A stretch of 64,000 nt of DNA from an uncultured Methylomirabilota bacterium (GCA_963695995.1 CAVOIV010000029.1:19-64018), one strand, 5' to 3'. Shown: positions 4,251 through 56,315, counted from the first letter of the stretch. Made by a program: numbers and translations. The notes: generated by a model not told the origin, from the letters alone.

Positions 4251-4739
4251 TCATGTCCGGACGCGGAAAGCCCATGTGATGAGTGCAATACCCTGAACGA
4301 GCAGGAGCACACCAAATACAAGCGGCACTGCCAACGCGGCTGCCACTGACGAGCTGAGCAATAGCAATCCGACTACGACATTGATCGACCCCAGTATAAA
4401 CGAACCTATTCCTCCGCCTGTGAAGCTGCCAATAATATCCGACACGCCCATGATCAATCCATCTACGCCAAGGATCCTGACGAGCACGGTAGGCGCCGTC
4501 ACCGCGGCGAGTAGCGGGTGTTTCAATACAAGGATCCCGGACGCCACTCCGACGACGCCAACGAGGAGCGACCAGATCCATGGGACGGCGCGATCCGTGA
4601 AGACGCGTACTAGCGCCAGCACTCCGGTGATCAGCCAGTAGAAACCTAGAAATGTTGTCAGTGCGACTAGAGTTGCGCCAGGCTGAGTGATGAGCATTGC
4701 GCCCAAAACAAGCCCAGCGGACCCTTGGAGTAGGAACAC
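4251..4739 (-). CDS. HdeD/DUF308-family membrane protein, apparently 5'-truncated (GTG start)
   Basis: Repeated glycine-rich TM segments (WWVFLLQGSAGLVLGAMLI, WIWSLLVGVVGVASGILVL, GSFILGSINVVVGLLLL). A TGA lies just upstream of the first TM in frame. Confidence 0.7.
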   Translation of the reverse strand: MFLLQGSAGLVLGAMLITQPGATLVALTTFLGFYWLITGVLALVRVFTDRAVPWIWSLLVGVVGVASGILVLKHPLLAAVTAPTVLVRILGVDGLIMGVSDIIGSFTGGGIGSFILGSINVVVGLLLLSSSVAAALAVPLVFGVLLLVQGIALITWAFRVRT

Positions 4740-13219: not shown

Positions 13220-13948
13220 TGTCGACGGAGCGGCCCCTGCTGGTCGTCGAAGGCATCGACACCTTCTACGGGGATGCCCAGGCGCTGAACGGCCTGTCGC
13301 TCACCATCGGGTCCGGCGAGACGGTCTGCCTCCTGGGCCGGAACGGCCAGGGCAAGACCACCACCATCAAGAGCATCCTGGGCCTGGTCCCGCCGCGGAG
13401 AGGCCGCATCACCTTCGACGGCGCGGACATCACGCACCTGCCGACCCACCGGATCGCCAGCCGGGGGATCGCCTGGGTGCCGGACAACCGGCGGATCTTT
13501 CCGACGCTGACGGTGGAACGGAACCTGGAGATGGGGCTGCATCGGGCGCTGCCCTGGGCGGGAGACGGGGCGGAGTGGACGCTGGATCGGATCTACGCGC
13601 GCTTTCCCGATCCTCGGCGGACTGAGACACCGGAGCGGTGAGCACCTGAGCGGCGGCGAGGCTCAACTGGTCGCCATCGCCCGCGCCCTGCTCATGGGTC
13701 CCAAGCTGGTCCTCCTGGACGAGCCCTCGCAGGGCCTCGCGCCCAAGATCGTGGAGGACCTCATGGCCGTGATCGAGGAGATACGCGAGGAGGGTATCGC
13801 CATGCTCCTGGTGGAGCAGAACTCCTCGCTGGCGCTCGGCATCGCCCATCGCGCCTACGTCGTCGACGACGGCCACATCGTCCACACCTCAGGCGCGGCG
13901 GACCTCGACAATAACCCCGAGTTGAAGACCCGCCTCCTGGCCGTGTAA
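13219..13948 (+). CDS. livF: LivF-type ABC ATPase, 1 frame break near 13609
   Basis: GRNGQGKTTT Walker A. After ...IYARFP the frame shifts by +1 to ILGGLRHRSGEHLSGGEAQLVAIARALLMGPKLVLLDEPSQGLAP. The start overlaps the upstream stop (TGATG). Confidence 0.88.
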
Positions 13949-14090
13949 CAGGGCTCCGCCCCCACTTCCACCGACCCTCCCGGGGTCCTGCGCACGTCCG
14001 AGCCCACAGTGTCCGTCTCAGGTTCCCCAAGATGGGTACCCGGCAGATGGGCTGTTTTCAGCAGCCCGCCAAGCGACGCGGAGGTGAAAC

Positions 14091-41545: not shown

Positions 41546-42291
41546 TCACGATTCCATCGCGGCTTGCCGATTCTGGGCCCGGTCGCTGTCGCTGTCTCCC
41601 CGGAGCGTCTGCGTCATGAGGCCGAGGACCTGGTCGAGACGCTCGGGGTCCTTCGTGCGCAGATCGGTGATGATCAGGTGGGACGCGCCGGGGGCCACGT
41701 ACACGGCGCGCTCCTTGGTATTCGCGGCGGACTCGTAGATCCTTTGGATCACGCCGGGCGGGATCACCGGGTCACGCTCTCCCGCCACCACGAGAAGCCG
41801 TCCGGCGAAACCGGAGAGGATGTCCCAGGCGTCCGACGCCTCCCAGCTCTTCGGGCGCCGGATGATCTCGGTGAAGCCGCCGTTGAACGGCACCGCGTAC
41901 GCCTCGGCCGCGTACATGGCCGGGCCGATGAGAACCAGGTTGGCGATGTCGTAGCGCCGCAGCAGCGTGACTGCGGTGTAGCCGCCCATGCTGGCGGCCA
42001 GGATGGAGAACGGCTGCGGCAGGGATGTGGCCTCGAGTACGGCGCAGGCCTGCTCGGTTCGGCTCCGGAGGCTGGTGGACCTCAGGTCGCCTCCGGTGTC
42101 GCCGTGGCCGATGCAATCGAAGGCCACCGAGCCGATGCCGTGCGCCCAGAAGTGCTCTCGGAGCTCCCGAAAGCGCTCTCGACAGCCAGCGGCCGGCGCC
42201 GTGCAACACCAGGAGGCGCGGCGGTTCCGCTGCCGGCCAGGACGTCTCCGACGAGCAGGTGGCCGTCGAACGAAACGCGGAAGCCGCGCAT
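41546..42291 (-). CDS. Alpha/beta hydrolase, 2 frame breaks near 42230 and 42195
   Basis: MRGFRVSFDGHLLVGDVLAGSGTAAP, then LLVLHGAGR, then ERFRELREHFWAHGIGSVAFD...ILAASMGGY in three successive phases. The start overlaps the recD stop (TGATG). Confidence 0.8.
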
Positions 42292-44154
42292 CACCCGGTC
42301 CCCCACAGGGCATCGCGCAGCCCGGAGGAGCGGGTGAGGCAACGGGAGACAGCGGCGGCGAAGACCTCGGCGCTGCCCCAGATCTCGACGCGGGAGCGGG
42401 CGCGCGTGAGGCCGGTGTAGACAAGCTCGCGCGTCATGACCGGCGTGAGCTCGTCCGGGAGGATCAGCAGGATCTCGTCCGCTTCGGAGCCCTGGCTCTT
42501 GTGGACCGTGGCGGCATAGGCAGTCTCGTGCTCGGGCAGCCGGGCGGGCGGCGAGCCGTCGCAGGCCGCCCTCGGCCGTGCGGAAGAAGACGCGGAACCT
42601 GCCGCTCCGCCGCCGGGTCGGCCAGCGTGATGCCCAGGTCCCCGTTGAAGAGGCGAAGGTTGTAGTCGTTCGCCGTGACCAGCACCGGTCGGCCGTGGTA
42701 CCAGGGCGTCCGCGGGCGAATCGCGCGTCGCGACTCCAGGCAGCTCGCGATGAGCGTGTTCAGGGCCTCGACGCCGTAGGGACCGGTGCGGTGGGCGCAC
42801 AGGACGCGGAACCGCTCCAGGGCCGTCAGGGCCGCCTCGGGGGTCTCGGCAGCCAGGTACGCCCCCAGCCTTTCCGCGATCTCGGCGAGCCGCGACGCGA
42901 GATCCCGGGGCGACTCCAATGGACGCCAGACGATATCCTCGCACTCGCCTCGCGTCGAGGAGGTCCAGGGCCGATCGGCCGTCCCCCCGGTTCACGAGGT
43001 GCGCCAGTCGGCCGATGCCGCTGTCCTGGCCGAAGCGGTAGCTCCGCGTGAGCTGGACGATGGCGTCGCGGATCGGCGGCCCCGATTCGTCCGCCGATCC
43101 ATCGCGGGACGCTGCGCCGCCCGCGTCCGCCGGATCGTGTCCGGTCACCTCGATCAATCGCCGCCGAAAGGCCGGCGAGAATCCCGGCGAGTCGCCGCAG
43201 ATGTCGCCCAGCACCGCGCCGGCCTCGACCGAGGCGAGCTGGTCCTTGTCCCCGAGCAGGATCAGGCGCGCCGTTCTCGGCACGGCCCGGACCAGCTTCG
43301 CCATGAGGGCCAGGTCCACCATGGAGGCCTCGTCCACGACCAGGACGTCCACCGGCAAGGGATTGTCCCGATCGTGCCGGAAGTCGACCGACCCCGGCCG
43401 GAAACCCAGCAGCCGGTGGATCGTCGTCGCCTCGACGGGGATGGCATCGCGAATGCGGGCATCCACCGGCAGCGTCTCCCGGCTGGCGCGGATGGCCTCC
43501 TGCATCCTCGCCGCCGCCTTGCCCGGTGGGGGCCGCGAGGGCGATGCGGAGGGGGGCCGCGCGCCTGCTCCAGCAGCAGGGCGAGGATGCGCACCACGGT
43601 GGTGGTCTTGCCCGTCCCCGGACCGCCGGAGATGACGCAGAAGCGCTTCAGCGCGGCCACGGCGGCGGCCAGGCGCTGCCGGTCCGCTTCGCCTCGGCCG
43701 CAGGCGGGAAGAGCCGATCGAGCGCCGTCCCGCAGGCGCCGCGGGTCCACATCGGCCGGATCGTCGGCGATGCGGGCCTGGAGGTCCGAGCGACGAGCTC
43801 GTGCTCGTAGGCCCAGTAGCGATACAGATACAGGCGGCCGGCCTCGTCCAGGATGAGCGGCGCGTAGTCGCCCGGCCGGCCCACCACCTGGTGTCGTCGC
43901 AGGGCCTCGCACCAGACGCGCGAGCGGCGGGGCGAGCCCCGGCTCGCCCTCGCCCAGCGCGGCGAGCGGCTGCCCGGCGGCGTCGGCCAGGCTCACGCAG
44001 ATGTGCTCCCTGGCTCGTCGCGCGGCAGACCAGGCGCGCGGCGAGCGCGAGGAGGGGATCCTCGCTGCCCGGCCAGCCGCGACAGCAGCCGGGCCATGTG
44101 CGCGTCCAGGCCGCCGGTCTCGGCGATCGCCTGCGCGTTCGCCCAGATCTTCAT
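42291..44154 (-). pseudogene. recD: RecD (exodeoxyribonuclease V alpha), at least 10 frame breaks
   Basis: [37 protein letters not shown] and [12 protein letters not shown] are spread over all three phases (ORFs 43262..44194, 43648..43887, 42291..43505, 42464..42919). Confidence 0.88.
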
Positions 44155-44168
44155 GCCACATCTCCTGG

Positions 44169-44320
44169 CAGAGCGACAAGAGACTCGTCTTCACCCAGGC
44201 TGCTCAAAAAGGTCCAGATGCAAGGCGGCACGCCGGAGGCCGAGCGAGGCGTACTGGAGGTACGCCGCAGCGAGTGCCGAGGCGGGCCAACGCCGCAGAT
44301 GGGCCTTTTTCAGCAGCCTG
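44169..44320. repeat. Imperfect-palindrome intergenic repeat (MITE/ERIC-like), copy 1
   Basis: Homologous to 51203-51348 and 54803-54949. The 125-bp core at 44196-44320 has near-perfect 21-bp terminal inverted repeats (CAGGCTGCTCAAAAAGGTCCA / TGGGCCTTTTTCAGCAGCCTG). Confidence 0.85.
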
Positions 44321-47300
44321 AGGCCAGGTACCGATCCAGCGCGACGATCAACGCCTCGGAGGGCCGGTCGCGATAGACGCCGAAGTCCGGGCCTCGCGCC
44401 GGATCCATCCCCCGCACGAACAGGTAGAACACGCCGCCGAAGTCCCGCTCGTACCGGTACTCCGGCAGCCGCTGCGAGAGATACCGGGTGAGCGCGACGG
44501 TGTAGATCAGGTACTGCAGGTCGTAGGCTTCCCGGGCCATCACCTGGGGCAGCCGCTCCGCCCGGTAGGCGTCCGGTCCCTCGCCCAGCCAGTTCGACTT
44601 GTAGTCCGCGAGGTAATAGCGGCCTCCCGCCTCGAAGACCAGGTCCATGGAGCCGGTCATGTAGCCTCGCACCGGGTCGAATGCTCAGCTCCTGGATCCG
44701 GCCCTCGGATGGCTCCGTCGTGGCCGTGCTGCGCGGAGCAGGGCGGTCAGCCGTCGCGGATCGAGGCGGGCCACCGGATAGTGGAACATCAGCTCGTCCA
44801 GCCGCTCCGCGCGCGCCACGCGGGCCAGGCAGAGACCGGTGGCGGCATCCAGCGGCGTCCGCAGGACGCTTCTCCACCATGTCCGCCACGGCGGTCTGCC
44901 AGGCCACATCGAAGCCGTGCTCGCGGAGCGCGTCGCCGCGCGGCCGCCTCGATGCACGGTCCCGGTCGGCCCGCGCGAAATCCAGCGAGGCGAAGAGGGC
45001 GTGCATGAAGATTCCCGCCCGGACGCCGCGCGGGAAGTCGGCGATGTCGGACGGGGCGCCTGGCCCGGCAGGACCGTCCGTCCGCCTCGCTCCGGCGAGG
45101 GGGCGGCATCGTAATCCGGCGCCTCCCGATGGCTGCCCGCCGTGAGCCCCGAGAAGCTGGTGACCTGCCAGCCCTTCGGGATCCGTCCCGGCGAAGGGCC
45201 GCGCCTGGAGCGACTCCGGGACGGGTGCCGAGGGGACGGGCGCCGGCGGCTCCGCCGGGGAGACGCTCTCGACCGCGATCACGCCCCCGGCGCTCTGCGC
45301 CAGCCGCATGAGATCCGCCAGGACCTCCCGGTCGCTCGAGGCCCTTGGCCCGCTCGCGGACGGAGGCCGCCCGGTCCGCCCCCGCGCGCCAGCTCCGCCG
45401 GCTGATGCAGCAGGTAGGCCAGCCCCGACAGCTCCCCCCCGTTGATGTTCCCCCACACGACCGTGCAGCGATGCTCGGCGCGCGTCAGGGCAACGTACGC
45501 GAGCCGCAGATGCTCCGCCAGCGCCTCGCGCTCGGCCAGCGCCCGCGCCTCGTCGAACCGGTCCGATCCCGCGTCCAGCGTGGGCGCGATTCTCGGCGGC
45601 CGGGTCGTGGAACAGCACGCCGAGCTCCTTCGTCCTTGCCGCGCAGCGAGCACGTCCCACAGGAACGGGCAGAAGACCACCGGGTACTGCAGGCCCTTGC
45701 TCTTGTGGATGGTGGCGATCTTCACCAGGTTCTCGTCGCTCTCCAGGCGAAGCTGGGCCTCCTCGGGCGCCGTCTCTCCATTCTGCCGGTGGGCCGCCAG
45801 CCAGTCGATCAGGCCTTCCATCCCCAGGTGGTCCGCGGCGGCCGCAGCCTGCAGCAGTTCCGTGAGGTGCAGGACGTTGGTGAGCCGCCGCTCGCCGTCC
45901 TCGAATCGCCAGGAGGCGCGCCGCCACACCCTCCGCCTTCATCAGCCGGCGGAACATCTGGACGAATCCCTGGTCCCGCCAGAGCGTCTGGTACTCCAGG
46001 AACGCGTTCGCCCGCGCCTCCCAGGCCGCCTCGTCCTCGCCGAGCGACCTCCAGCGCGTTCCCGCCGAGGCCGAAGAGATCCGTGGCCAGGGCGGCCCGG
46101 ACCAGCGACTCGCGCCCCGGCTGCGCCACGGCCAGGAGGACGCGCTCGATCTCCGCCGCCTCGTGCGTCTCGAAGACGCTCGCCTCGCCGAGCTGGACGC
46201 TGGCGACGCCCCGCGCGAGGAGCGCCGCCCGCACCCGGTCGGCCTGGGCGTTGGTCCGCACCAGGACCGCGATGTCCCCGCCGCGGAGCGCCGTCTCCCC
46301 GATCCGGGCCTCGCCCCGGCCGGCCGCCGCGAGAAGCCGCGCGATCTCGGCCGCCGTGGCCTGGATCGCCGCGTCCGCGGCCTTCCCCTTGGGCAGCGGC
46401 TCGCGCTCGTCCGCGCGGGAGAGGCACCAGATCCGGAGCGGCGCATCGGCGTCCCCCGCCACCGAGAGGACGTTGCGCTCCTTCTCGGCCGGCCGCACCG
46501 GGAGGAACTCGATCTCGTCGAACAGGAACGGGCTCGCCCGCACCGCCGAACACGGCGTTCACCGCCCGGACCAGCCCGGGGGCGGAGCGCCAGTTCCGAT
46601 CCAGCGTTCGCCTCGCCTCCGCGTCGCGGCCCGCCGCCAGATAGGCGAAGATGTCCGCACCCCGGAAGCCGAAGATGGCCTGCTTGGGATCCCCCACCAG
46701 GAAGACCGGGAGCCGGCTTGCGCCGTAGATCCGCCTGAAGATCGAGTACTGGACGGGATCGGTGTCCTGGAACTCGTCGATCAGCGCCGCGGAGTAACGC
46801 CGGCGCAGGCCCGCGGCCAGCGCCGCGCCGTGCGGGGCCTCGAGCGCGCTGGTCCAGGCGCAGCAGGAGATCCTGGTACGCGGTGAGCTGCCGGCGCTCC
46901 TTCCGCACGGCCAGCTCTCGCCGGCAGTAGTCGAGGAGCTCCAGCTTGAGCGTCTTGGCCCGGAACGCGAGGTACTCCACCAGCGACTGCCAGGCCTCCG
47001 TCAGCCGCTCGCAGGCCGCGAAGAACGGGTGGGCCGGCGGGGCGCACCCCTTCTTGGCGGCCGGACCGCAACGCGCCCGACCGTGAACTTCTCGACGCGG
47101 GCACACCAGGCGGCGTGCGCCTCGGCCGGCCGCAGGAAGGCATCGATCTCGTCCAGCCAGACCGGGAGGGATCTCGGCGGGTACTTGGAGGCGTTCAGCG
47201 AGGTCTGGCTGCGAAGCAGCGTCTCGATCGCCGCCCGGTCCGCGTCCCAGAGACCCCGTGCCTCGCGGTAGCGGGTCTCGTAGAGCGCCTCGGCCTCGGA

Positions 47301-47948
47301 AGAATCGGCCGGCGGCGTTGGGGGTCGGACGGTAAGCGACATCCTCCGCAGGTACGGCCGCACGCTCCTGGCGAGCTCCTCCGGGCTCCACCCCCGCCGC
47401 AGCAGATACCCCACCAGGAGCCGTGATCCCCGGTAGAGGCGCTTCCGCCAGAAATCGTCCACGACCTCTTGCAGGATCTCCCCCTCGTCCGGGACCAGCT
47501 CGGCCTCGAACGGCTGGCCGCTCTCGAAGGCACCCTCCTTGAGCACACGCTGGCAGAAACCGTGGATGGTGAGGATCGCCGCCTCGTCGAACCCCTGGAC
47601 CGCCTGGGCGAGCCGGCGTGCGGCCGCGGCGCGCTCCGGGATGCGGGCCAGCAATCCGGCCAGGACCCCGTCCCTGGGATTCGCCAGGACCCCGCGTTCA
47701 AACGCCCCGCGTGCCGCTTCCAGTCTGGCGCGGATCCGGTCGCGCAGCTCCGCCGTGGCGGCCACCGTGAAGGTGACGACCAGGATCTGATCCACCGGCC
47801 GGCCGCCCTCCAGCACCAGCCGCAGGTAGAGATCCGCCAGAGTGTGGGTCTTCCCCGTCCCGGCGCTGGCCTCGATGAGGTGGAGACCTTCCAGGGGCTC
47901 CGCCAGGATGTCCAGCGGTCGGGTCCGGCCGTGCGCCCGCCCGCTCAT
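44310..47948 (-). pseudogene. recB: RecB (exodeoxyribonuclease V beta), at least 12 frame breaks
   Basis: EASAGTGKTHTL, LIDEFQDTDPVQ, GDPKQAIFGFRGAD, TIHKSKGLQYPVVF, YVALTRA and the nuclease motif DLVFEAGGRYYLADYKSN are scattered over three phases. The start overlaps the recC stop (ATGA). Confidence 0.9.
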
Positions 47949-50900
47949 GGCCGTCGGTGCTCCAGCATGGGCAAGAACACCTCCCGCGCCAGCCGCTCGA
48001 AGTCGGCGTCCAGCGGGTCCTGGCTCCGAAACACCAGGCGGTGGTACGGGTCCTGTCCTTCCGGGGTCTTCTTCGAGAAGTCGTTTCCGACCCAGACCGT
48101 GCGGGCGGCCGCCAGCGCCCGCTCTTCGCCCTGGCCCTTCTGCAGGCGCTCGGCGTAGGCGAAACTCGCCTCCGGAAAGAGATGCAGGGGCTGCGAGAGT
48201 CCCGCCCAATAGATCCCGGCCAGCGCCGCGAGACGCGGCAGCGGATCCTCGACCGGTCCCAACAGGATCGTCTCCTCCTCGCCGACCCAGCAGCTCTCGC
48301 GGGCCACCCCCGGCGGCCGAAGGCTATTCAGGAGCAGGTGCCGGAGCCAGAGCGCGATCCAATCTTTCGGCTTGGCCGTGGTCAGCCGGTAATCCAGGAG
48401 ACCCTGCCCGCTCACGCCCGTCAGCCAGCCGGTCAGCCGGATGGGGCCGAGGTCGCAGTCCACGGGGATCGGGTCCGGCCGCTCGGCGGGTCGCCGCTCT
48501 TCGAGGCGCCTGGCGAAGGCCTCGACCTTCTCCGCCTCCCCGGCGAAGAGCACCTCTCCCACGCGGCCCTGCGGCAGTCGCCCGCCGCCTCGGGCGACCT
48601 CCCAGGCGTCGGCCGGCGAGCCACCGGCGAGCCGGAGGTCGAGCAGCTCCTGTCGCAGCTCGTAGGCGGCCAGCCCGTCGAGGGTGAACGGCTCACGACT
48701 CTCCAGCAGCCCTTCCTGCTCCTCCAGGTGGATCCGCAGCCGCTCGCGGACCAGGTACTTCACCGGCTGCCGAAAGAAACGGATGAAGCGGGCCACATCC
48801 ACCGTGCGCCACTCGCCCGGCGGCTCCGCCAGGGGGTGCGCCAGGAACGGCTGCGGGCCGGGGGAGGTCCGCCACCGCCGGCTGGCCTCGCAGAATTCCT
48901 CCGAGTAGCTGAAGAGCTGCGACCCGGCCCCGCCGCCCCGGAAGTAGCGCGGGCTGAAGGCGTGCAGCGGATGGCGCGTGACCAGCCGGTCGCGGAGCGT
49001 GCCTTCACCCTCCGGAGGAGCGAACCCGCGCTCCGCGTAGTCCAGGAGCTCGCTCACCAGAACCGAGGGCGGGAGTTTCGCGTTGTCCCGGTTGCTCTGC
49101 CCCACGTAGCTCAGGTACAGGACGCGGCGTGCCGAGACGACGGCCTCCAGGAACAGATAGCGGTCGTCGTCGCGGCGGGACCGGTCGCCGGTGCGGACGT
49201 TCTCGCTCATCAGGTCGAAGCCCGGCGCACGCCGGCTGCGCGGATAGCTCCCGTCGTTCAGCCCGATGAGGCAGACCACCTGGAAGGGGACGCTCCGCAT
49301 CGGGAGCATGGCACAGAACGTCACCCGCCCCGCCAGGAAGCGCCCGCCGCCCCGCGGATCTCCCAGCGCGGCCTGGAGCGCGGACCGGACGACGGCGAGC
49401 GAGACCGGAGTGCCGAAGTCGGCCTGGGCCGCCTCCGCAGCAAGCGCCGCGGCCGCCCGGCGGATGTCGGCGACCTGCTCCTCCTCGTCCTCGTCGGCAT
49501 CCAGGAAGCGGCCGAGGAGGCGCACGAGGAGGTCCGCCCATCCTGCGACCGGGCGGGCGCGCGACAGCTCTTCCCGCGCGGCGAAGAGGGCCTCGGCGAA
49601 GGAGCAGAGCCGACCCAGAATCCGGCTGGCCGCCCCCTCGATCTCGTCGTAGGGCAGGATGCCCTCGAAGAGCCGCCGCCCGCCCGCGGGCAGGGCGTAG
49701 CCCAGCAGCAGCCGGTCCAGGCCGGCGCGCCAGGTGTGCTCCGCGGTCGCAGGCAGGTCGAGGGCCGCGCGGCTCTCCCCGTCCACCCCCCAGCGCACCC
49801 CCGTGGCCCGGACCCAGTCCTGGATCTGCGGCCAGGTCGCCCTCCGCGATGCCGAACCGCCGGCGCACCGGCTCGATCTCCAGCAGGCCCAGCACCTGCT
49901 CCGCCCCGAAGCGGCCCTCCGCGATTTCCAGCAGCGAGAAGAAGGCAGTTACCACCGGGCTCTCCGCCCGCTGACGGCGATCCGCGATGCTGAAGGGAAT
50001 CCGCCGGTCCGGCTCCGCGGTGCCGAAGACTGCCTCGATGAACGGGGCGTAGGCCTCGATGTCCGGGGTCATGACGGCGACATCCCCCGGCTCGAGCCCT
50101 GGGTCCGCCTCGAACAGGGCCAGGAGCTGATCGTAGAGGACCTCCACCTCGCGCATGGGGCCGTGACAGGAGTGGACCTGGACCGAACAGTCATCGGAGC
50201 GGAGGCGGGTGCGGGGAGCGCCGTCCTCCCCCCGGTTCCGCAGGGTGAGGATGTCGGTCTGGAGACAGTGGAGCAGGGTGTCCTCGCCGGGCTCCTCGAA
50301 CTCCCCCAGCTCGTGCGGGTCGTAATCCAGGAGCAGCCCGAGGAAATCCCGCCCCTGCTTGCCGCAGGCGGCCAGCAGGCTGTTGCCGGTCTCTAGGTAT
50401 AGCTCGCGCGGATCCCGGTCTTTGACGCGCCGGGCGATCTCGCGCGCGGATCGAATCTCGGCCCAGAACTGCCGGCAGGGGTTGAGCAGGAAGAGATGGA
50501 CGTCCAGGCGCTCGGCCAACCGGGCGAAGACCTCGAGCTGCGCCGGCGGCAGCGTCGGGATGCCGAAGAGGCTGAGCCGGGAGGGGAGCCCGAACGGTTC
50601 GGACGGCACACCGTCGAGCGCGGCCAGGAAACGCGCCTGCACCCGCACCCGGTGGATGCCCCCGACCGACCGGACCAGCTCGCGCCAGAGGGGCGCGTGC
50701 CAGGACTCCCCGCCCCCCCGCTCCCAGTCCAGGATCCAGTCCGGCCGGTAGACCAGATACTGGTCGAACAGGTCGGCGATCCGCGAGGCGAGCTGATGGC
50801 GGCGGAGGTCGTCCTCGGCATCCGCGAGATAGGCGCGGAGCGGGGCGAAGACCTCTCCGCCGGCGATGGTGGGGAGCAGTCCCATCAGACGCCAGACCAG

Positions 50901-51167
50901 GACCTCCCGATCGTAGGGGGAGTGGTCCGGCACGTCGAAGAGGATCCGGCCGAAGAGCTTCCAGACCAGGCTGGAGGGGAGGGGGAAGTCGATGTTGGCG
51001 GAGACGCCGAGGCGGTCCGCCAGCCGCATCCGGAGCCAGCGGGCCATCCCGTTGCTCTGGACCGCGATGGTCTCGGGCGTGAGCGGCGGAGCGAGGGGGA
51101 CGCGCAGGACCTCGGCCAGGTCGTCCGCCAGCCGCTCCAGGCGGTTACTCTGATGGAGGATCAGCAT
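47945..51167 (-). CDS. recC: RecC (exodeoxyribonuclease V gamma), 1 frame break near 49810
   Basis: MLILHQSNRLERLADDL...IAVQSNGMARWL in ORF 49005..51257 continues in ORF 47945..49798 (RWGVDGESRAALDL...). Confidence 0.9.
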
Positions 51168-51202
51168 CCGGCGCACCCCAGAGCCATCAGGACCGTCCCT
51201 AG

Positions 51203-51348
51203 CAGGATGCTGACAAAACTCGTTTTCACTCAGGCTGCTCAAAAGGTCCAGCCGCAAGGCGGACGCCCATCGAGCGGGCGTACTAGCGGTACGTCGCAGC
51301 GCCGCGCGAGCGCGAGCAACGCAGCAGATGGGCCTTTTCAGCGACCTG
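51203..51348. repeat. Imperfect-palindrome intergenic repeat (MITE/ERIC-like), copy 2, flanked by CTAG/CTAG
   Basis: CTAG at 51199-51202 and at 51349-51352. The termini are CAGGATGCTGACAAAA on the left and the reverse complement CAGGTCGCTGAAAAGG on the right. Confidence 0.85.
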
Positions 51349-53255
51349 CTAGATGATCTGGCTGTGGTAGCTGGCCTGAACGTCCTCGCACCAGTTCCCC
51401 ACGTTCCAGACGCCGTAGGCGCCGAGGCCGCCCAGCGGATCGGGTCCGTAGTAGACCGGCACGTGCACCAGCGAGAGCCCCTCGTGCCGGGACGCCTCCG
51501 TCAGGGCGACCCACAGCGCGTCCGGGGTGTCGCCGCCCGAGAGCGCCTTCACCCCGGGCACCGCCGAGGCCAGGCGGACGTAATCCACCGGCACCGCGTC
51601 ATGCGTCCGGAACGCCTCGCCGTACTGCGCCTCCTGCAAGCCCGAGATGGCCGCCATCCGACGATTGTCCAGCAGGAGGATCGTCCCGCGGGCGCCGTGC
51701 AGGACGCCGTCCACCAGGACCTGCGGATTCATGAAGAACGACCCGTCCCCGCTGAAGGCGATCCCGTACTGCGGCCGGTCCGCCACGCCCGACGCGAGGA
51801 GTGCGCTCACCGCAAACCCCATGTGCGAGGCCCCTGTCTCCGTGATCGTCTGGTTCGGCTCGTCGTCCTCCGCCACCTGGAATCCGACCGCCTGCACATC
51901 GCCGGCGTCGAAGAACTTCACGGCGCGAATGCTGTTGGCGAAGTCGCAGGCGATCTTGATCGCTGCGGGCTGCGTCAGGACGGGCCGCCCCCACATCGGC
52001 GTCGCGCAGGACCGGGTGGGCGTAGCGCTCGGCCTTGAGGGCTTGCCATTCCCGCTTCTTCGCCGCCGTGGCGTCGAGCCAGGCCTCGGCCCGTCCCAGG
52101 TCGACCCCGCCCTGCTTCTGGAGCGCCTCCCGGAGCTGACCGATCACGACCCCGATATCCCCCGCCAGGGCCACGGTCCGGTTGTAGTGGGTGACGTCGC
52201 CGAGGTCCGCGTTGATGTTGATCACGGCGGACGCCGACGCGTAGCCCGTCCCCGAGCAATCCGCCTGACACACCCCCCGCGACCCGATGACGATCAGGAG
52301 GTCGGCGTGGCTGGTCGCATAGTTGCCGGAGAGCGACCCCTTGCTCCCCATCACGCCCATGTTCCGCGGGTGCTCGTCGGGCAGCACCCCGAGCGCGCCG
52401 GGCGACAGCACGGCGACGCGCACCGATCGCCTCGACGAGGGCCCGCACCTGCCGGGCAAAGGCGCGGGCGCCACCGCCCACCTTGACGACGATCCGGCGA
52501 TGCGTCTGGATGAGCCCGAGCGCTGCGGCCACGATCGCCGGATCCCCGACCGCCATGGGTGGCGGCGCGAGCGGCCCGGGAAGCGCCTCCAGGTTCAGGC
52601 GCGCGATCCGCGCCGGCTGGGTATTGAGCGGCAGGAGCAGAAAGAACGGACCGGCCCGGAACGAGCGGTGGACGGCCAGGCTCCCGCGGCGCAGCGCCGC
52701 GCGCAGGGCCTCGGGCGTGTGCAGGACGTAGGACTCGCCCATCAGGGCCGTGAGCTGGCCGAAGAGGCCCTGCGCGTGCTTGGGGATGGCCTGCATGTTC
52801 GGCCCCTCCCCGTGGGTCGTCTCGTCCCCGTAGATGTGGTAGACGCCGATCCCGTTGGACGCGGCGGCGAGCGAGCCCGCAAAGGCATGCAGCGCCCCCG
52901 GCCCGATGGAGGTCACCACCGCGGCCGTCTCGCCGTAGTGCCACTTCAGCGCGGTGGCCGCGTGGGCCATGGCGGTCTCGTGGCGGAAGTTGTAGGTCCG
53001 CGTGAGGCCGGCGGCCTCATAGACCCGGAGCACCTCCGCGAGATCCGTGGAGCCGTGCCCGAAGACCGCCAGGTACTTCCGCACGCCTTGCTTCAGGAGG
53101 CCCAGGACCAGACCTTCCGCCAGCGTCGTGTCGATCGGATTGGGGAGCGTGCCGCCCGCCAGCGCCGCCTCGAGGCCGCCCGCCTCCGCGATCGTCTGCG
53201 CCCGCCGCTCCATGGCGATCAGCCGCGCGACGTGCTGCTTCGGAATCTGCCCCAT
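51349..53255 (-). CDS. Thiamine-pyrophosphate-dependent enzyme (acetolactate synthase / IolD-like), 2 frame breaks near 52440 and 52005
   Basis: FGHGSTDL...FRHETAMAHAA at the N-terminus, a middle domain, and the TPP motif GDGSFFMN...LLLDN. The protein runs through three successive phases. Confidence 0.8.
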
Positions 53256-53487
53256 AGTTGCGACCTCCCTCACGTCCCTACCCCGATGCGGTTGCCGGCT
53301 CGGAGAGCGTAGTCTACACTGACCCGCCAAGGTGGACGCAAGCGCTTTCTGTCGGCCCGCCGCGACCGGCCCGGTGTGCGTACCAGGGCGCCCCGGGTCG
53401 CCGCGAGACCGAATGCGTGCGGGGGGCTGGCACGCCTTCCGCCGCCCCCCGCAGATCGGTGGCTCCCGTGAATCCCCGGCCGCGCTC

Positions 53488-54784
53488 TCAGTGTGCCTTC
53501 CCGGCAGCCGTGTAGGCCTGATCCAGGATCTGGCTCACGTGGCGCACCTGGACGGGCAGGCCCTTGCGGCGCGCGCCGTAGCTCAGATGCATCATGCAGG
53601 CCGGGCATTCGGTGGCCAGGATGGCCGCGCCGGTCTTCTCCACATTGCCCATCTTCCGATCCAGGACCCCCGTGGCCTCTTCGTGGTGGAGGAAGGTGTA
53701 GCTCCCCGCCGCGCCGCAGCACCAGTCGGCCTCCGGCAGCTCCTTGTACGTCATGCCCGGCACGGACTTCAGGAGCTTTCGCGGTTGCGCGGTGATCTTG
53801 GCGAATCGGTTGGATAGGTGGCACGGGTCGTGGTAGGTGACCGTCCCCGAGAGCGTCCCGAGGCTCCCGTTCGCCCCGACCCCCACCAGGAACTCGCTGA
53901 AGCTCTGGATCTTCTTGGACAGGGCCGCGGCCTTCTCGGCATGGACCGGGTCGCCCTTGAGCAGATCGCCGTAGTCCTTCAGGTGCGCGCTGCAGCTCCC
54001 GCACTCCGAGACGATGGCGTCCAGTTCCATGGCCGGCGCCAGGCGATCCACGTTCTTCCGGGCGATGTCGCGGGCGGCGTCGAGATCGCCGTAGGAGTGC
54101 GCCGGCCGGCCGCAGCAGGTGTTGTTCGAGGACGGTGACGCGCAGCCGTTCCTGCGCCAGGACGCGCAGCGTGGCCTCGACCACCTCGGGAAACTGGAAG
54201 CTGAGCCCGCAGGAGACGAAGTAGCCGATCCGGTGCTTCACCGTGGCGGGCGCCGGCACCTGCGCGCGCTCCCCGCGCAGGAACGGCTTCGCGATGGACG
54301 GGGGCGCCACCTGGTTGGCCGACCGCCAAGTCGCTTGTCCACGAGGCCCAGGAGGCCGGTCTTCTCCGCCAGCGTCGGCCAGCCCGTGGCGTTTCGCCCA
54401 GAGCGCCATTCGGCCGCCCAACTCGATCTTCTTGCTGTCCGACAGGATCGTCCGGAACAGGATGCGCTGCCACACCGGCTGTCCGTGGCGGGTGATGTAG
54501 GCGTGCCGGATCGCGGTCACGACCTCGTCGGTCTTGAGCGCCGGGAAGCAGTGCGCCGTGCAGCCCCGACAGAGCAGGCAGTCCTCCAGCGCGTGTACCA
54601 CCTCAGGCGTGAGCTCGAGGTTGCCCAGCATCAGGCCGCGGGCGATGGCCATACGGCCGCGGGAGAGGGAGTGCTCCTCGCCCGTCACCCGGAACACCGG
54701 GCAGCCGGCCTGGCAGAATCCGCACCGATTGCACTTCGCGATGGCCTCGTGCAGGGGAAGCAGTTCCGCGATCGCCATGGCCAC
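53488..54784 (-). CDS. glcF: Glycolate oxidase iron-sulfur subunit (GlcF-like), at least 1 frame break near 54120
   Basis: CNRCGFCQAGCP and CLLCRGCTAHCP clusters, then CCG-domain motifs (NTCCGRP, YHDPCHL, WCCGAAG) in ORF 53488..54051. Confidence 0.85.
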
Positions 54785-54802
54785 ACTCCCTGATAGGCTT
54801 AG

Positions 54803-54949
54803 GGTTCCTGTAAACCCGATTCCCCAGGCTGCTCAAAAAGGCTCAGATGCAAGGCGGCATGCCGTAGACCGAGCGAGGCGTACTGGAGGTACGCCGCAGC
54901 GAGTGGCGAGGCGGGCCAACGCCGCAGATGGGCCGTTTTCAGCGAACTG
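54803..54949. repeat. Imperfect-palindrome intergenic repeat (MITE/ERIC-like), copy 3, flanked by TTAG/CTAG
   Basis: The core at 54825-54949 is near-identical to copy 1. It abuts the glcE TAG stop (54950-54952). Confidence 0.85.
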
Positions 54950-56315
54950 CTAGAGCCCGCCGAGGAATCGTCCCGGGTTGCAAAGTCCCCGAGGATCGAA
55001 TTCCGTCTTGAGTCGCCGCATCACGCCGAAACCGTCGCCCGGCTTTCCCCACGCGTCCATGCGCGCCTTGAGAGAGGCGGGGGCGTCCTGCAGGATCAGG
55101 CTCCCCTCCACCGCCTCCGCCTCGCGCCGCAAGCCTTCCAGCGCATCGGCCAGTACCTCGTCCGGCGGCGCCTTCGGGCCGAGCAGGTAGCACGCCCAGA
55201 CGACGCCGTTGCCGGCGTGCGCGATCACGGTCGCGTGCATCCCGTGGCGGCGGCCCAGCGCCCCGGCGGACGCCAGCAGCTCGCCGGTCCGTCCGATGGG
55301 GACCGCGATCTTGCAGAGAGCGCGGGTGGCCGGGGGGACCGGAAGAAGGCCGAAGACGTTGCGGATGGCGTCCCAGGCCAGGACCGTCTTCCCGTCCGGG
55401 AGAGGCGTCGCGCGGCCGCCCCGGTCCCGGAAAATCGTGGCGAAATCCCGCGCCTGTCGCTCGACCGTCGCTGCGCTCCCGGCCAACGCCACGGCGAGGC
55501 CGTAGGCGCCGGCGGGCGCCTCCAGACCGAGACGCGGCGCCAGCAGTGCCACCGCTGCGGGATCCAGGAGATCCAAGGCCTCCGGAAGCAGCACCGATTC
55601 CAGTGTCGTCGCCACGACGGCGGTCGCCTGCGAAAGCTCCGGGAACCACCCGACGACGCCGGCCCGCACTGCGGGCACGGGTAAGAGCTTGAAGGTGACC
55701 TCCGTGACGATGCCCAGCGTGCCCAGGCTTCCGATGAACAGCTTGTTCATGTCGTAGCCCGAGACGTTCTTGATGACCTTGCCGCCGCAGTGGATACGCT
55801 CCCCGTCGGGCAGGGCCACCCGCATGCCCAGCACCCAGTCCCGCGCGGTCCCGTAGAGGAGCCGGCGACGGCCCGCTCAGGTTGGTCGCCACCAGGCCGC
55901 CGACGGTGACCTTGCCGTCGGCCGGCGGGTCGAGCGGGAGGATCTCGCTCTTCTGGGCGAGCGTCGCCTGGAGGCCGGCGAGCTTCACGCCCGCCTCGAC
56001 CGTCACGCAGAGGTTGGCGGCGTCGAACTCGACGATCCGGTCGAGTCGGTCGAGCGGCATCGCCACGTCCGCGCGGGCCGGGCGGTTCCCCAGCCCGATG
56101 GCGGTCCCGCCCCCCCAGGGGATGACCGCCGCGTTGGCGGCGGCGCAGGCTGCCAGGACCTTGGACACCTCGTCCTGCGTCCCCGGCCGAACCACGACCC
56201 CCGGCAGCACGCCGTCCACGCCGAGCTTGACCGTGGCGGCGGGACCGACGCCCACGTGCTCGGCGCCGACGATCTTCTCCAGTTGCCCGCGGAGTCCTGC
56301 GAGGTCAGGCTGCAC
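54950..56315 (-). CDS. glcE: Glycolate oxidase FAD-binding subunit (GlcE-like), 1 frame break near 55860
   Basis: FAD_PCMH N-terminus (VVVRPGTQDEVSKVL...IPWGGGTAIG) continues in ORF 54950..55834 (GMRVALPDGERIHCGGKVIKNVSGYDM). Confidence 0.82.

What the first reader, a model, noticed from the sequence alone, without database searches (positions are those of the whole stretch)
51199..52000. Unnamed ~146-bp imperfect-palindrome repeat flanked by a perfect CTAG duplication (best-preserved of three copies)
51203-51348 is homologous to 44169-44320 and 54803-54949. The shared core runs CAGGCTGCTCAAAA(A)GG..CAG...GGCGTACT.G.GGTACG.CGCAGC...GCAGATGGGCC.TTTTCAGC..CTG.
The outer termini are inverted repeats. 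The left end is CAGGATGCTGACAAAA and the reverse complement of the right end is CAGGTCGCTGAAAAGG.
A second, internal copy of the terminal repeat starts at 51231. It lets about 118-125 bp fold into one long hairpin with a central GCGTAC/GTACG stem.
The element is bracketed by CTAG at 51199-51202 and 51349-51352, which looks like a target-site duplication.
The copies differ by 1-nt indels, so they are not coding. All three have the same orientation and sit between co-directional minus-strand genes.
This is the signature of a MITE or an ERIC/REPIN-like structured repeat, but I cannot match it to any named family. (The end coordinate is padded into the adjacent gene only to mark context. The element itself ends at 51348.)
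Basis: seen in the sequence. Interest (0 to 1): 0.72.

Follow-up and report, generated by a model that had tools for sequence, protein, structure and literature searches.

The report
New IS5-derived miniature transposon (MITE)
The 146-bp repeat is a miniature, gene-less transposon that borrows the enzyme of an IS5-type jumping gene and inserts at CTAG, usually right behind stop codons; it is a previously undescribed family of an ordinary kind of element.

Summary
Window 51203-51348 is a 146-bp element with terminal inverted repeats, an internal ~118-bp hairpin and CTAG on both sides. Homologous copies lie at 44169-44320 and 54803-54949, and a decayed fourth copy lies at 13949-14068.

It is a MITE.
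- **Empty site:** two near-identical syntenic metagenome contigs carry a single CTAG exactly where the window has CTAG-element-CTAG.
- **Target duplication:** across 45 copies from other genomes, the 4-bp flanks match far more often than chance, with consensus YTAR.
- **Autonomous partner:** full-length 1.28-1.35-kb insertion sequences have the same ends (CAGGMTGCTGAAAAAC) and CTAG duplications. They encode an IS5-family transposase. The closest named relative is ISAzs10.

More than 125 copies were found, mostly in Methylomirabilota/Rokubacteria MAGs. There is no Rfam, literature, plasmid, phage or E. coli match.

YTAR is rare in this 67% G+C DNA and often coincides with TAG/TAA stop codons. 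This explains why copies abut gene ends inside operons.

The hairpin shows compensatory changes and folds better on one strand. That hints at an RNA- or ssDNA-level role, which remains unproven.

Verdict: a new member of a known kind, of moderate interest.

The parts
51203..51348 (+). Complete MITE copy (146 bp). It comprises the outer-left inverted repeat (51203-51218), a spacer to 51230, a hairpin core (51231-51348), and the right inverted repeat (51333-51348).
   Evidence: The insertion boundaries are fixed to the base by the empty sites in L113 and L115.
51199..51202 (.). Left copy of the 4-bp target-site duplication CTAG.
   Evidence: the empty sites have a single CTAG.
51349..51352 (.). 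Right copy of the duplication CTAG. On the minus strand, 51351-51349 is the TAG stop codon of the upstream TPP-enzyme gene.
44169..44320 (+). Older MITE copy. It has a degenerate outer-left end (44169-44195) and a near-perfect 125-nt hairpin (44196-44320). TGA at 44310-44312 (minus strand) terminates recB.
   Evidence: (z=-7.2). Relatives L238 and L239 have recB and recD overlapping by 4 nt with no element.
54803..54949 (+). Older MITE copy. It has a degenerate left end (54803-54824) and a hairpin (54825-54949). It is flanked by TTAG (54799-54802) and CTAG (54950-54953). CTA at 54950-54952 is the stop codon of the glcE-like gene.
   Evidence: The element is present at the same glcE/glcF junction in all six syntenic contigs L112-L117.
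13949..14068 (+). Decayed fourth copy. Only the right end (about 14030-14068) is still recognisable. It starts directly after the TAA stop codon (13946-13948) of a plus-strand gene.
   Evidence: E=0.002; family D6.
51120..51171 (-). Start of recC, the gene downstream of the 51203 copy. The ATG lies about 30 nt beyond the left duplication.
   Evidence: Searches give the same gene order in L113 and L115.

Best explanation
**What it is.** It is a non-autonomous DNA transposon (MITE) derived from, and mobilised in trans by, an IS5-family insertion sequence of the ISAzs10-like group (NCBIfam transpos_IS5_4).

**How it moves.** The DDE transposase recognises the 16-19-bp terminal inverted repeats (CAGGMTGCTGAAAAAC). 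It inserts the element at a YTAR tetranucleotide with a 4-bp staggered cut, so the target is duplicated. The left end of the MITE is the transposase-proximal end of the parent. The rest is a ~125-nt imperfect palindrome whose base is the other inverted repeat.

**Why it sits at gene ends.** YTAR is very rare in this 67% G+C genome, and many YTAR sites are TAG/TAA stop codons. The duplication regenerates the stop codon. Insertions immediately behind genes are therefore harmless and persist, even inside operons such as glcE-glcF, TPP enzyme-recC and recB-recD.

**Shown here:** boundaries, duplication, an empty site, copy number, a partner IS with the same ends and the same duplication, and hairpin covariation.

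**Inferred:** that this transposase moves this element, and that persistence at stop codons reflects target availability plus purifying selection.
For: - **Empty/filled pair:** the flanks are about 100% identical. The window has CTAG + 146 bp + CTAG where L113 and L115 have one CTAG.
- **Duplication statistics:** among 45 copies, 15 have perfect 4-bp left/right matches against 6.1 expected (0 of 20000 permutations reach 15). Six of these are non-CTAG (CTAA, TTAG, CCAG) against 1.7 expected (p=0.002). The consensus is YTAR.
- **Autonomous elements:** ten elements of 1282-1347 bp have CAGGMTGCTGAAAAAC at both ends, and nine are flanked by CTAG on both sides.
- **Transposase family:** the protein has DUF772 + DDE_Tnp_1 and scores 270-286 bits on NF033581 IS5_4 (cut-off 140).
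- **Shared left end:** the first 19 nt of the transposase-proximal end of the high-G+C elements L169 and L199 equal the MITE consensus left end, CAGGATGCTGAAAAACCCG.
- **Named relative:** ISAzs10 is 62% identical in protein. Its structure is TTAG|CAGGCCGCGGAAAAAGG...CCTTTTTCCGCGTCCTG|TTAG.
- **Sibling MITE families:** many other short elements of 88-281 bp use the same inverted repeats and YTAR flanks.
- **Copy number:** 127 full copies were found in 111 genome loci.
- **Literature:** a YTAR duplication is documented for IS5 (PMC10359306).
- **Stop-codon adjacency:** a stop codon abuts the element exactly in 37 cases at the right end and 13 at the left. A further 12 and 4 genes use the TGA inside the terminal repeat.
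- **Target rarity:** the window has only 49 YTAR sites, 10 of them at called stop codons.
Against: - No transposase gene or full-length IS lies in the window or in the 111 genome loci. The partners come from unbinned metagenome contigs, so co-residence in the same genome is not shown.
- The interior of the hairpin has no counterpart in the full-length IS copies.
- A plain MITE model does not by itself predict three observations. These are the compensatory changes in the hairpin, the consistently better folding of one strand (119 of 126 copies), and the roughly 3:1 orientation bias at gene ends.
- The copies at 44169 and 54803 no longer show an intact duplication.
- Firmicutes copies are flanked by 18-23-nt duplications instead of YTAR.
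Confidence: 0.92

Rival explanations
1. The hairpin is primarily a structured non-coding RNA or cis-regulatory RNA element (for example an sRNA gene, an mRNA 3'-end stabiliser or an attenuator). On this reading its spread is secondary.
For: - 19 of 33 pairs show double-sided changes, and 94.7% of cells are paired. Double-sided changes number 129, against 34 in shuffles and 23-60 in slid controls.
- G-U pairs outnumber A-C pairs 183 to 21.
- The plus strand folds better in 119 of 126 copies.
- A tandem G-A pair and a C-C mismatch are conserved.
- Firmicutes copies have a TTGACA-N16-TAGGAT/AAAAAT promoter-like site directly upstream in the same orientation.
Against: - Presence/absence with a precise 4-bp duplication shows it is a transposon.
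- No Rfam family matches.
- The window copies have no promoter-like or terminator-like site.
- In most copies the flanking mRNA would carry the weaker minus-strand version.
- The apparent terminators in Firmicutes are duplicated target hairpins.
- The TTGACA lies inside the inverted-repeat homologue: 13 of 18 positions of CAGACCGTTGACAAACCC align with CAGGCTGCTGAAAAACCC when compared by eye from the sequences.
- Covariation in terminal repeats is expected from co-evolution with transposases, and many G-U pairs are inherited from a few master copies.
Confidence: 0.05
2. It is a REPIN/REP-type element moved by a RAYT (HUH/Y1) transposase acting on single-stranded hairpins, or an IS200/IS605-type palindrome-associated element.
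For: - It has a long imperfect hairpin with strand asymmetry and conserved mismatches.
- It sits in intergenic positions near gene ends.
- A second, small REP-like hairpin family is nested in it.
Against: - True terminal inverted repeats plus a 4-bp duplication are not made by HUH/Y1 enzymes.
- A DDE IS5-family partner has identical ends.
- No recurrent neighbouring gene was found other than common paralogues.
Confidence: 0.02
3. It is a chance similarity, or a local segmental duplication with no mobility.
For: None. With only three copies in one window, this could not be excluded from the sequence alone.
Against: - More than 125 copies occur in dozens of MAGs, next to unrelated genes.
- A polymorphic insertion exists.
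Confidence: 0.01

Closest known systems
ISAzs10-like IS5-family insertion sequences (NCBIfam NF033581 transpos_IS5_4); E. coli IS5 for the target rule
   Same: - The terminal repeats are of the same type (CAGG-N-GC-N-GAAAAA).
- Both make a 4-bp YTAR/CTAG/TTAG target duplication (PMC10359306; bioRxiv 10.1101/2023.04.27.538605 for ISXo1).
- The left 19 nt of the MITE consensus are identical to the transposase-proximal end of the high-G+C members L169 and L199.
   Different: - The window element is 146 bp, has no gene, and has an interior unrelated to the IS.
- It carries a third, internal copy of the terminal repeat that closes a 125-nt hairpin.
Bacterial MITEs that sit inside operons or fold as RNA hairpins: Chunjie (Geobacter), Correia/NEMIS (Neisseria), ERIC (enterobacteria); review PMC10969869
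   Same: - They are small, have inverted repeats plus a duplication, and occur in many copies.
- They sit in intergenic or intra-operon positions and have long hairpin potential when co-transcribed.
- Sizes vary and truncated copies exist.
   Different: - The sequence is unrelated, with no match in E. coli genomes, plasmids or phages.
- The host phylum differs (Methylomirabilota).
- The target is YTAR, so insertion falls exactly at stop codons.
- No processing or expression data exist for this element.
REPINs / REP-BIME elements with RAYT transposases
   Same: Both are abundant intergenic imperfect palindromes near the 3' ends of genes.
   Different: REPINs have no terminal-repeat/duplication structure and are linked to a Y1 HUH enzyme. 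This element has a proven 4-bp duplication and a DDE partner.

Membership tests
MITE (miniature inverted-repeat transposable element) | Short (under about 300 bp) with no coding capacity of its own | tested here: met
   The element is 146 bp. Copies differ by indels and lengths range from 97 to 205 bp.
MITE (miniature inverted-repeat transposable element) | Terminal inverted repeats | tested here: met
   CAGGATGCTGACAAAA pairs with the reverse complement of CCTTTTCAGCGACCTG in the window. The consensus CAGGMTGCTGAAAAAC is present in the 45 copies of the TSD set, out of 61 with a detectable outer-left repeat.
MITE (miniature inverted-repeat transposable element) | Target-site duplication, shown by an empty site | tested here: met
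   CTAG-element-CTAG in the window corresponds to a single CTAG in L113 and L115. In a permutation test on 45 copies, 0 of 20000 permutations reached the observed count.
MITE (miniature inverted-repeat transposable element) | Multiple dispersed copies | tested here: met
MITE (miniature inverted-repeat transposable element) | An autonomous element with matching ends and the same duplication | tested here: met
   Ten full-length IS copies have the same inverted repeats and CTAG flanks. They were not shown to reside in the same genome as the window.
MITE (miniature inverted-repeat transposable element) | Mobilisation in trans by that transposase | not testable with these tools
   This needs a transposition assay.
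IS5 family (for the partner element) | DDE transposase of the IS5 type | tested here: met
   Pfam finds DUF772 + DDE_Tnp_1. NCBIfam NF033581 scores 286 and 270 bits against a cut-off of 140. IS1182 scores 204 bits, below its cut-off of 270.
IS5 family (for the partner element) | 4-bp duplication at YTAR and a length of about 1.2-1.4 kb | tested here: met
   Searches (1282-1347 bp; CTAG in 9 of 10; ISAzs10, TTAG), and PMC10359306.
REPIN / REP-RAYT | No target duplication, and an associated RAYT (Y1 HUH) gene | tested here: not met
   A duplication is proven. No recurrent associated gene was found in the neighbourhood clustering.
ERIC | Sequence homology to the enterobacterial ~127-bp ERIC consensus | tested here: not met
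   blastn in distant mode against 5,426 complete E. coli genomes gave no match.
Any Rfam RNA family | A covariance-model match | tested here: not met
   There were 0 hits at gathering thresholds in the window. No hit on the element at E<=1 was found in four loci.

The most novel reading that the evidence does not exclude
The conserved 125-nt hairpin may be more than filler. It could be a functional single-stranded module read on the plus strand of the element. One possibility is an RNA transcribed inward from the promoter embedded in the left inverted repeat, as the Firmicutes copies suggest. Such an RNA might modulate the parent transposase or have been exapted as a small RNA. Another possibility is a single-stranded-DNA structure that aids transposition.

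This would explain three things:
- the compensatory changes;
- the one-strand G-U bias kept even in Firmicutes and Deltaproteobacteria variants;
- the conserved C-C and tandem G-A mismatches.
Probability: 0.15. Interest if true: 0.6.

Novelty: new member of a known kind. Interest (0 to 1): 0.35.

Why it matters
- **Annotation:** it gives a name and a mechanism to an abundant unannotated repeat of Methylomirabilota/Rokubacteria genomes. This will help gene calling, because the element supplies or abuts stop codons and is easily mis-translated. It will also help assembly and strain typing, because filled and empty alleles exist.
- **Target choice:** it is a clear example of how a rare palindromic target (CTAG/YTAR) in high-G+C DNA channels a transposon to the base right after stop codons. 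Operons can then be colonised without gene damage.
- **A testable lead:** the strand-biased, covarying hairpin is a modest lead for an RNA-level role of a MITE.

Tried and rejected
- **Rfam:** gathering thresholds on the whole window and E<=1 on four loci gave nothing on the element.
- **Literature:** searches for six sequence strings, and for Rokubacteria plus MITE, gave nothing.
- **Other collections:** plasmids, phages, viral contigs and E. coli genomes gave no match.
- **Autonomous IS in held sequence:** none was found in the window or the 111 genome loci, using solitary inverted repeats, long inverted repeats and tblastn.
- **Recurrent neighbour genes:** only two large paralogue clusters recur; by eye they look like dehydrogenases (one member) and ABC ATPases (one member confirmed by Pfam).
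- **Empty sites among the first loci:** L070 versus L056 and L053 versus L070 are orthologous but too diverged to be clean.
- **Empty site for the 44169 copy:** relatives lack the element but the junction sequence differs, so it is not a clean pair.
- **attC reading:** rejected on reading the sequence (no tool run), because there is no RYYYAAC/GTTRRRY core.
- **TA duplication (IS630-like) reading:** rejected, because the non-CTAG flanks CTAA/CTAA and TTAG/TTAG match over all four bases.
- **Stand-alone ncRNA gene with its own terminator in Firmicutes:** weakened, because the 'terminators' are duplicated target hairpins and the -35 box lies in the inverted-repeat homologue.
- **Source organism:** identifying it by cluster look-up returned no name.

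Full report
**Observation.** The window has 67.3% G+C. Reading the three regions and aligning them confirms one repeat family in the same orientation.
- A profile of the 125-nt core finds 44196-44320, 51231-51348 and 54825-54949 at E=1e-30 to 1e-39. It also finds a right-end fragment at 14030-14066 (E=0.002).
It also has an internal third copy of the repeat at 51231 and CTAG on both sides.
- The core folds into one long hairpin. The copy at 44196 gives -78.8 kcal/mol (z=-7.2) and the copy at 54825 gives z=-3.0. The copy at 51231 alone is not significant (z=-1.5).

**Context.** All neighbouring genes are on the minus strand.
- The 44169 copy lies between recB and recD. The recB reading frame ends at a TGA inside the element (44310-44312).
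- The 51203 copy lies between a TPP-dependent enzyme gene and recC. The TPP gene's TAG stop is part of the right CTAG.
- The 54803 copy lies between a glcE-like and a glcF-like gene. The glcE-like stop is part of the right CTAG.
- recB, recC, recD and glcF are split over several frames. Close homologues cover only 44-45% of the window ORFs. This points to indel errors in the assembly, or to pseudogenes.

**Spread.**
Almost all are Methylomirabilota/Rokubacteria/NC10 MAGs. A few contigs are labelled as other soil phyla, three are Firmicutes MAGs and three are Deltaproteobacteria MAGs.
- These loci hold 127 full copies.
- There is no match in Rfam, in the paper library, in plasmids, phages or viral contigs, or in E. 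coli genomes.

**Proof of mobility.**
- Homologues of the window's GlcF led to six syntenic metagenome contigs with the order glcD-glcE-glcF-TPP enzyme-recC.
- In L113 and L115 the TPP-recC spacer is 31 nt and reads ...CAGCCAGwTCAT CTAG GGACGGTCC....
- The window reads ...CAGCCAGATCAT CTAG [146 bp] CTAG GGACGGTCC..., with otherwise identical flanks. The element boundaries and the 4-bp duplication are therefore exact.
- The copy at the glcE/glcF junction is present in all six relatives, so it is older.
- For the recB/recD copy, relatives have overlapping recB and recD genes and no element. The junction has diverged, so that pair is not clean.

**Target rule.**
- Among 45 copies with a recognisable outer-left repeat, 15 have identical 4-bp flanks against 6.1 expected. 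Six of those are non-CTAG (CTAA x3, TTAG x2, CCAG) against 1.7 expected. The consensus is YTAR.
- This excludes a TA-only duplication.
- YTAR is the documented duplication of IS5 (PMC10359306) and of ISXo1 (bioRxiv 10.1101/2023.04.27.538605).

**Autonomous partner.**
- A metagenome scan looked for the outer-left repeat not followed by the hairpin. This pattern had zero hits in the 117 earlier loci.
- The scan returned ten full-length elements of 1282-1347 bp with CAGGMTGCTGAAAAAC at both ends. Nine are flanked by CTAG on both sides.
- They encode a 355-365-aa protein with DUF772 + DDE_Tnp_1. It scores 270-286 bits on NCBIfam IS5_4 (cut-off 140).
- The high-G+C members L169 and L199 share their first 19 nt (CAGGATGCTGAAAAACCCG) with the MITE consensus left end.
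- The closest named relative is ISAzs10 of Azospirillum sp. B510. Its transposase is 62% identical, and its structure is TTAG|CAGGCCGCGGAAAAAGG...CCTTTTTCCGCGTCCTG|TTAG.
- The same scan shows many other 88-281-bp elements with these repeats and YTAR flanks but other interiors. This IS group has therefore spawned a swarm of MITE families.
- No transposase lies in the window or the 111 genome loci.

**Why the element sits at stop codons.**
- Of 119 copies with enough flank, a high-GC3 ORF ends exactly at the right end in 37 cases (TAG 24, TAA 9, TGA 4). A further 12 ORFs use the TGA inside the terminal repeat. The left end shows 13 and 4 such cases.
- The window has only 49 YTAR sites. It has 25 CTAG sites against 194 expected from composition. 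Ten of the YTAR sites overlap called stop codons.
- Target rarity, regeneration of the stop codon by the duplication, and purging of insertions in coding DNA explain the pattern.
- The roughly 3:1 orientation bias is not explained by the palindromic target.

**The hairpin.**
- On 60 copies no more than 93% identical to each other, 94.7% of cells pair. Nineteen of 33 pairs show double-sided changes. There are 129 such cells, against 34 in shuffles and 23-60 in slid controls.
- G-U pairs outnumber A-C pairs 183 to 21.
- The plus strand is more stable in 119 of 126 distinct copies, by 9 kcal/mol on average. This includes the Firmicutes and Deltaproteobacteria variants.
- A C-C mismatch and a tandem G-A pair are conserved.
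- Part of this signal can come from inheritance from master copies, and from co-evolution of the inverted repeats with transposases. The remainder is a real but unproven hint of a function as a single strand.
- The window copies have no sigma-70-like promoter or intrinsic terminator.

**Firmicutes copies.**
- The Firmicutes copies first looked like stand-alone RNA genes, with TTGACA-N16-TAGGAT/AAAAAT sites directly upstream.
- However, the -35 box lies inside a homologue of the left inverted repeat. Compared by eye from the sequences, CAGACCGTTGACAAACCC matches CAGGCTGCTGAAAAACCC at 13 of 18 positions.
- The downstream 'terminators' are 18-23-nt direct duplications of a local hairpin on both sides of the unit. 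These copies are also insertions, but with long duplications.

**Verdict.** This is a previously undescribed MITE family derived from ISAzs10-like IS5-family elements. It is a new member of a known kind. The only open and mildly novel point is whether the strand-biased hairpin does something.

Noticed in passing
L031 1574-1750; inside long copies such as L110 4203-4365, L028 5653-5816 and L007 6306-6510: A second repeat is present: a ~22-nt hairpin of the form GGTACCC(A)NCC-loop-GGNTGGGT with compensatory stem changes. It is nested at variable positions in MITE copies of 143-205 nt and also stands alone (21 inside, 7 outside). It looks REP-like.
   Followed up: partly
L016 3570-3760; L067 7490-7665; L046 1560-2150: Firmicutes (Limiplasma) copies are flanked by 18-23-nt direct duplications of a local GC-rich hairpin instead of YTAR. 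L046 holds three tandem units with a period of 188 nt. From memory, long duplications are described for the IS1182 family, which is the second-best NCBIfam hit of the partner transposase.
   Followed up: partly
window 42291-51257 and 53270-54784: recD, recB, recC and glcF are each split over two or more reading frames. The deposited RecD (P0121) is a 343-aa truncation on a 135,469-nt contig. These are probably indel errors of the assembly, or else pseudogenes.
   Followed up: partly
window about 53280-53400; L112-L114 about 4290-4510; absent in L115 1982-2058: A different indel of about 157 nt lies in the glcF-TPP enzyme spacer. It contains a GC hairpin followed by a T run. It is present in the window and most relatives but absent in L115.
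   Followed up: no
window, whole: CTAG is about eight-fold under-represented (25 observed against 194 expected from base composition). Only 49 YTAR sites occur in 64 kb.
   Followed up: yes
L118-L237, for example L121, L157, L165, L216, L226/L235, L228: Many unrelated short elements (88-281 bp) share the CAGGCTGCTGAAAAAC inverted repeats and YTAR flanks but have different, often hairpin-forming, interiors. This is a swarm of sibling MITE families of the same IS5 group.
   Followed up: partly
L112 2655-2958: At the glcE/glcF junction, one relative carries two adjacent copies of the element (2655-2779 and 2805-2958).
   Followed up: no
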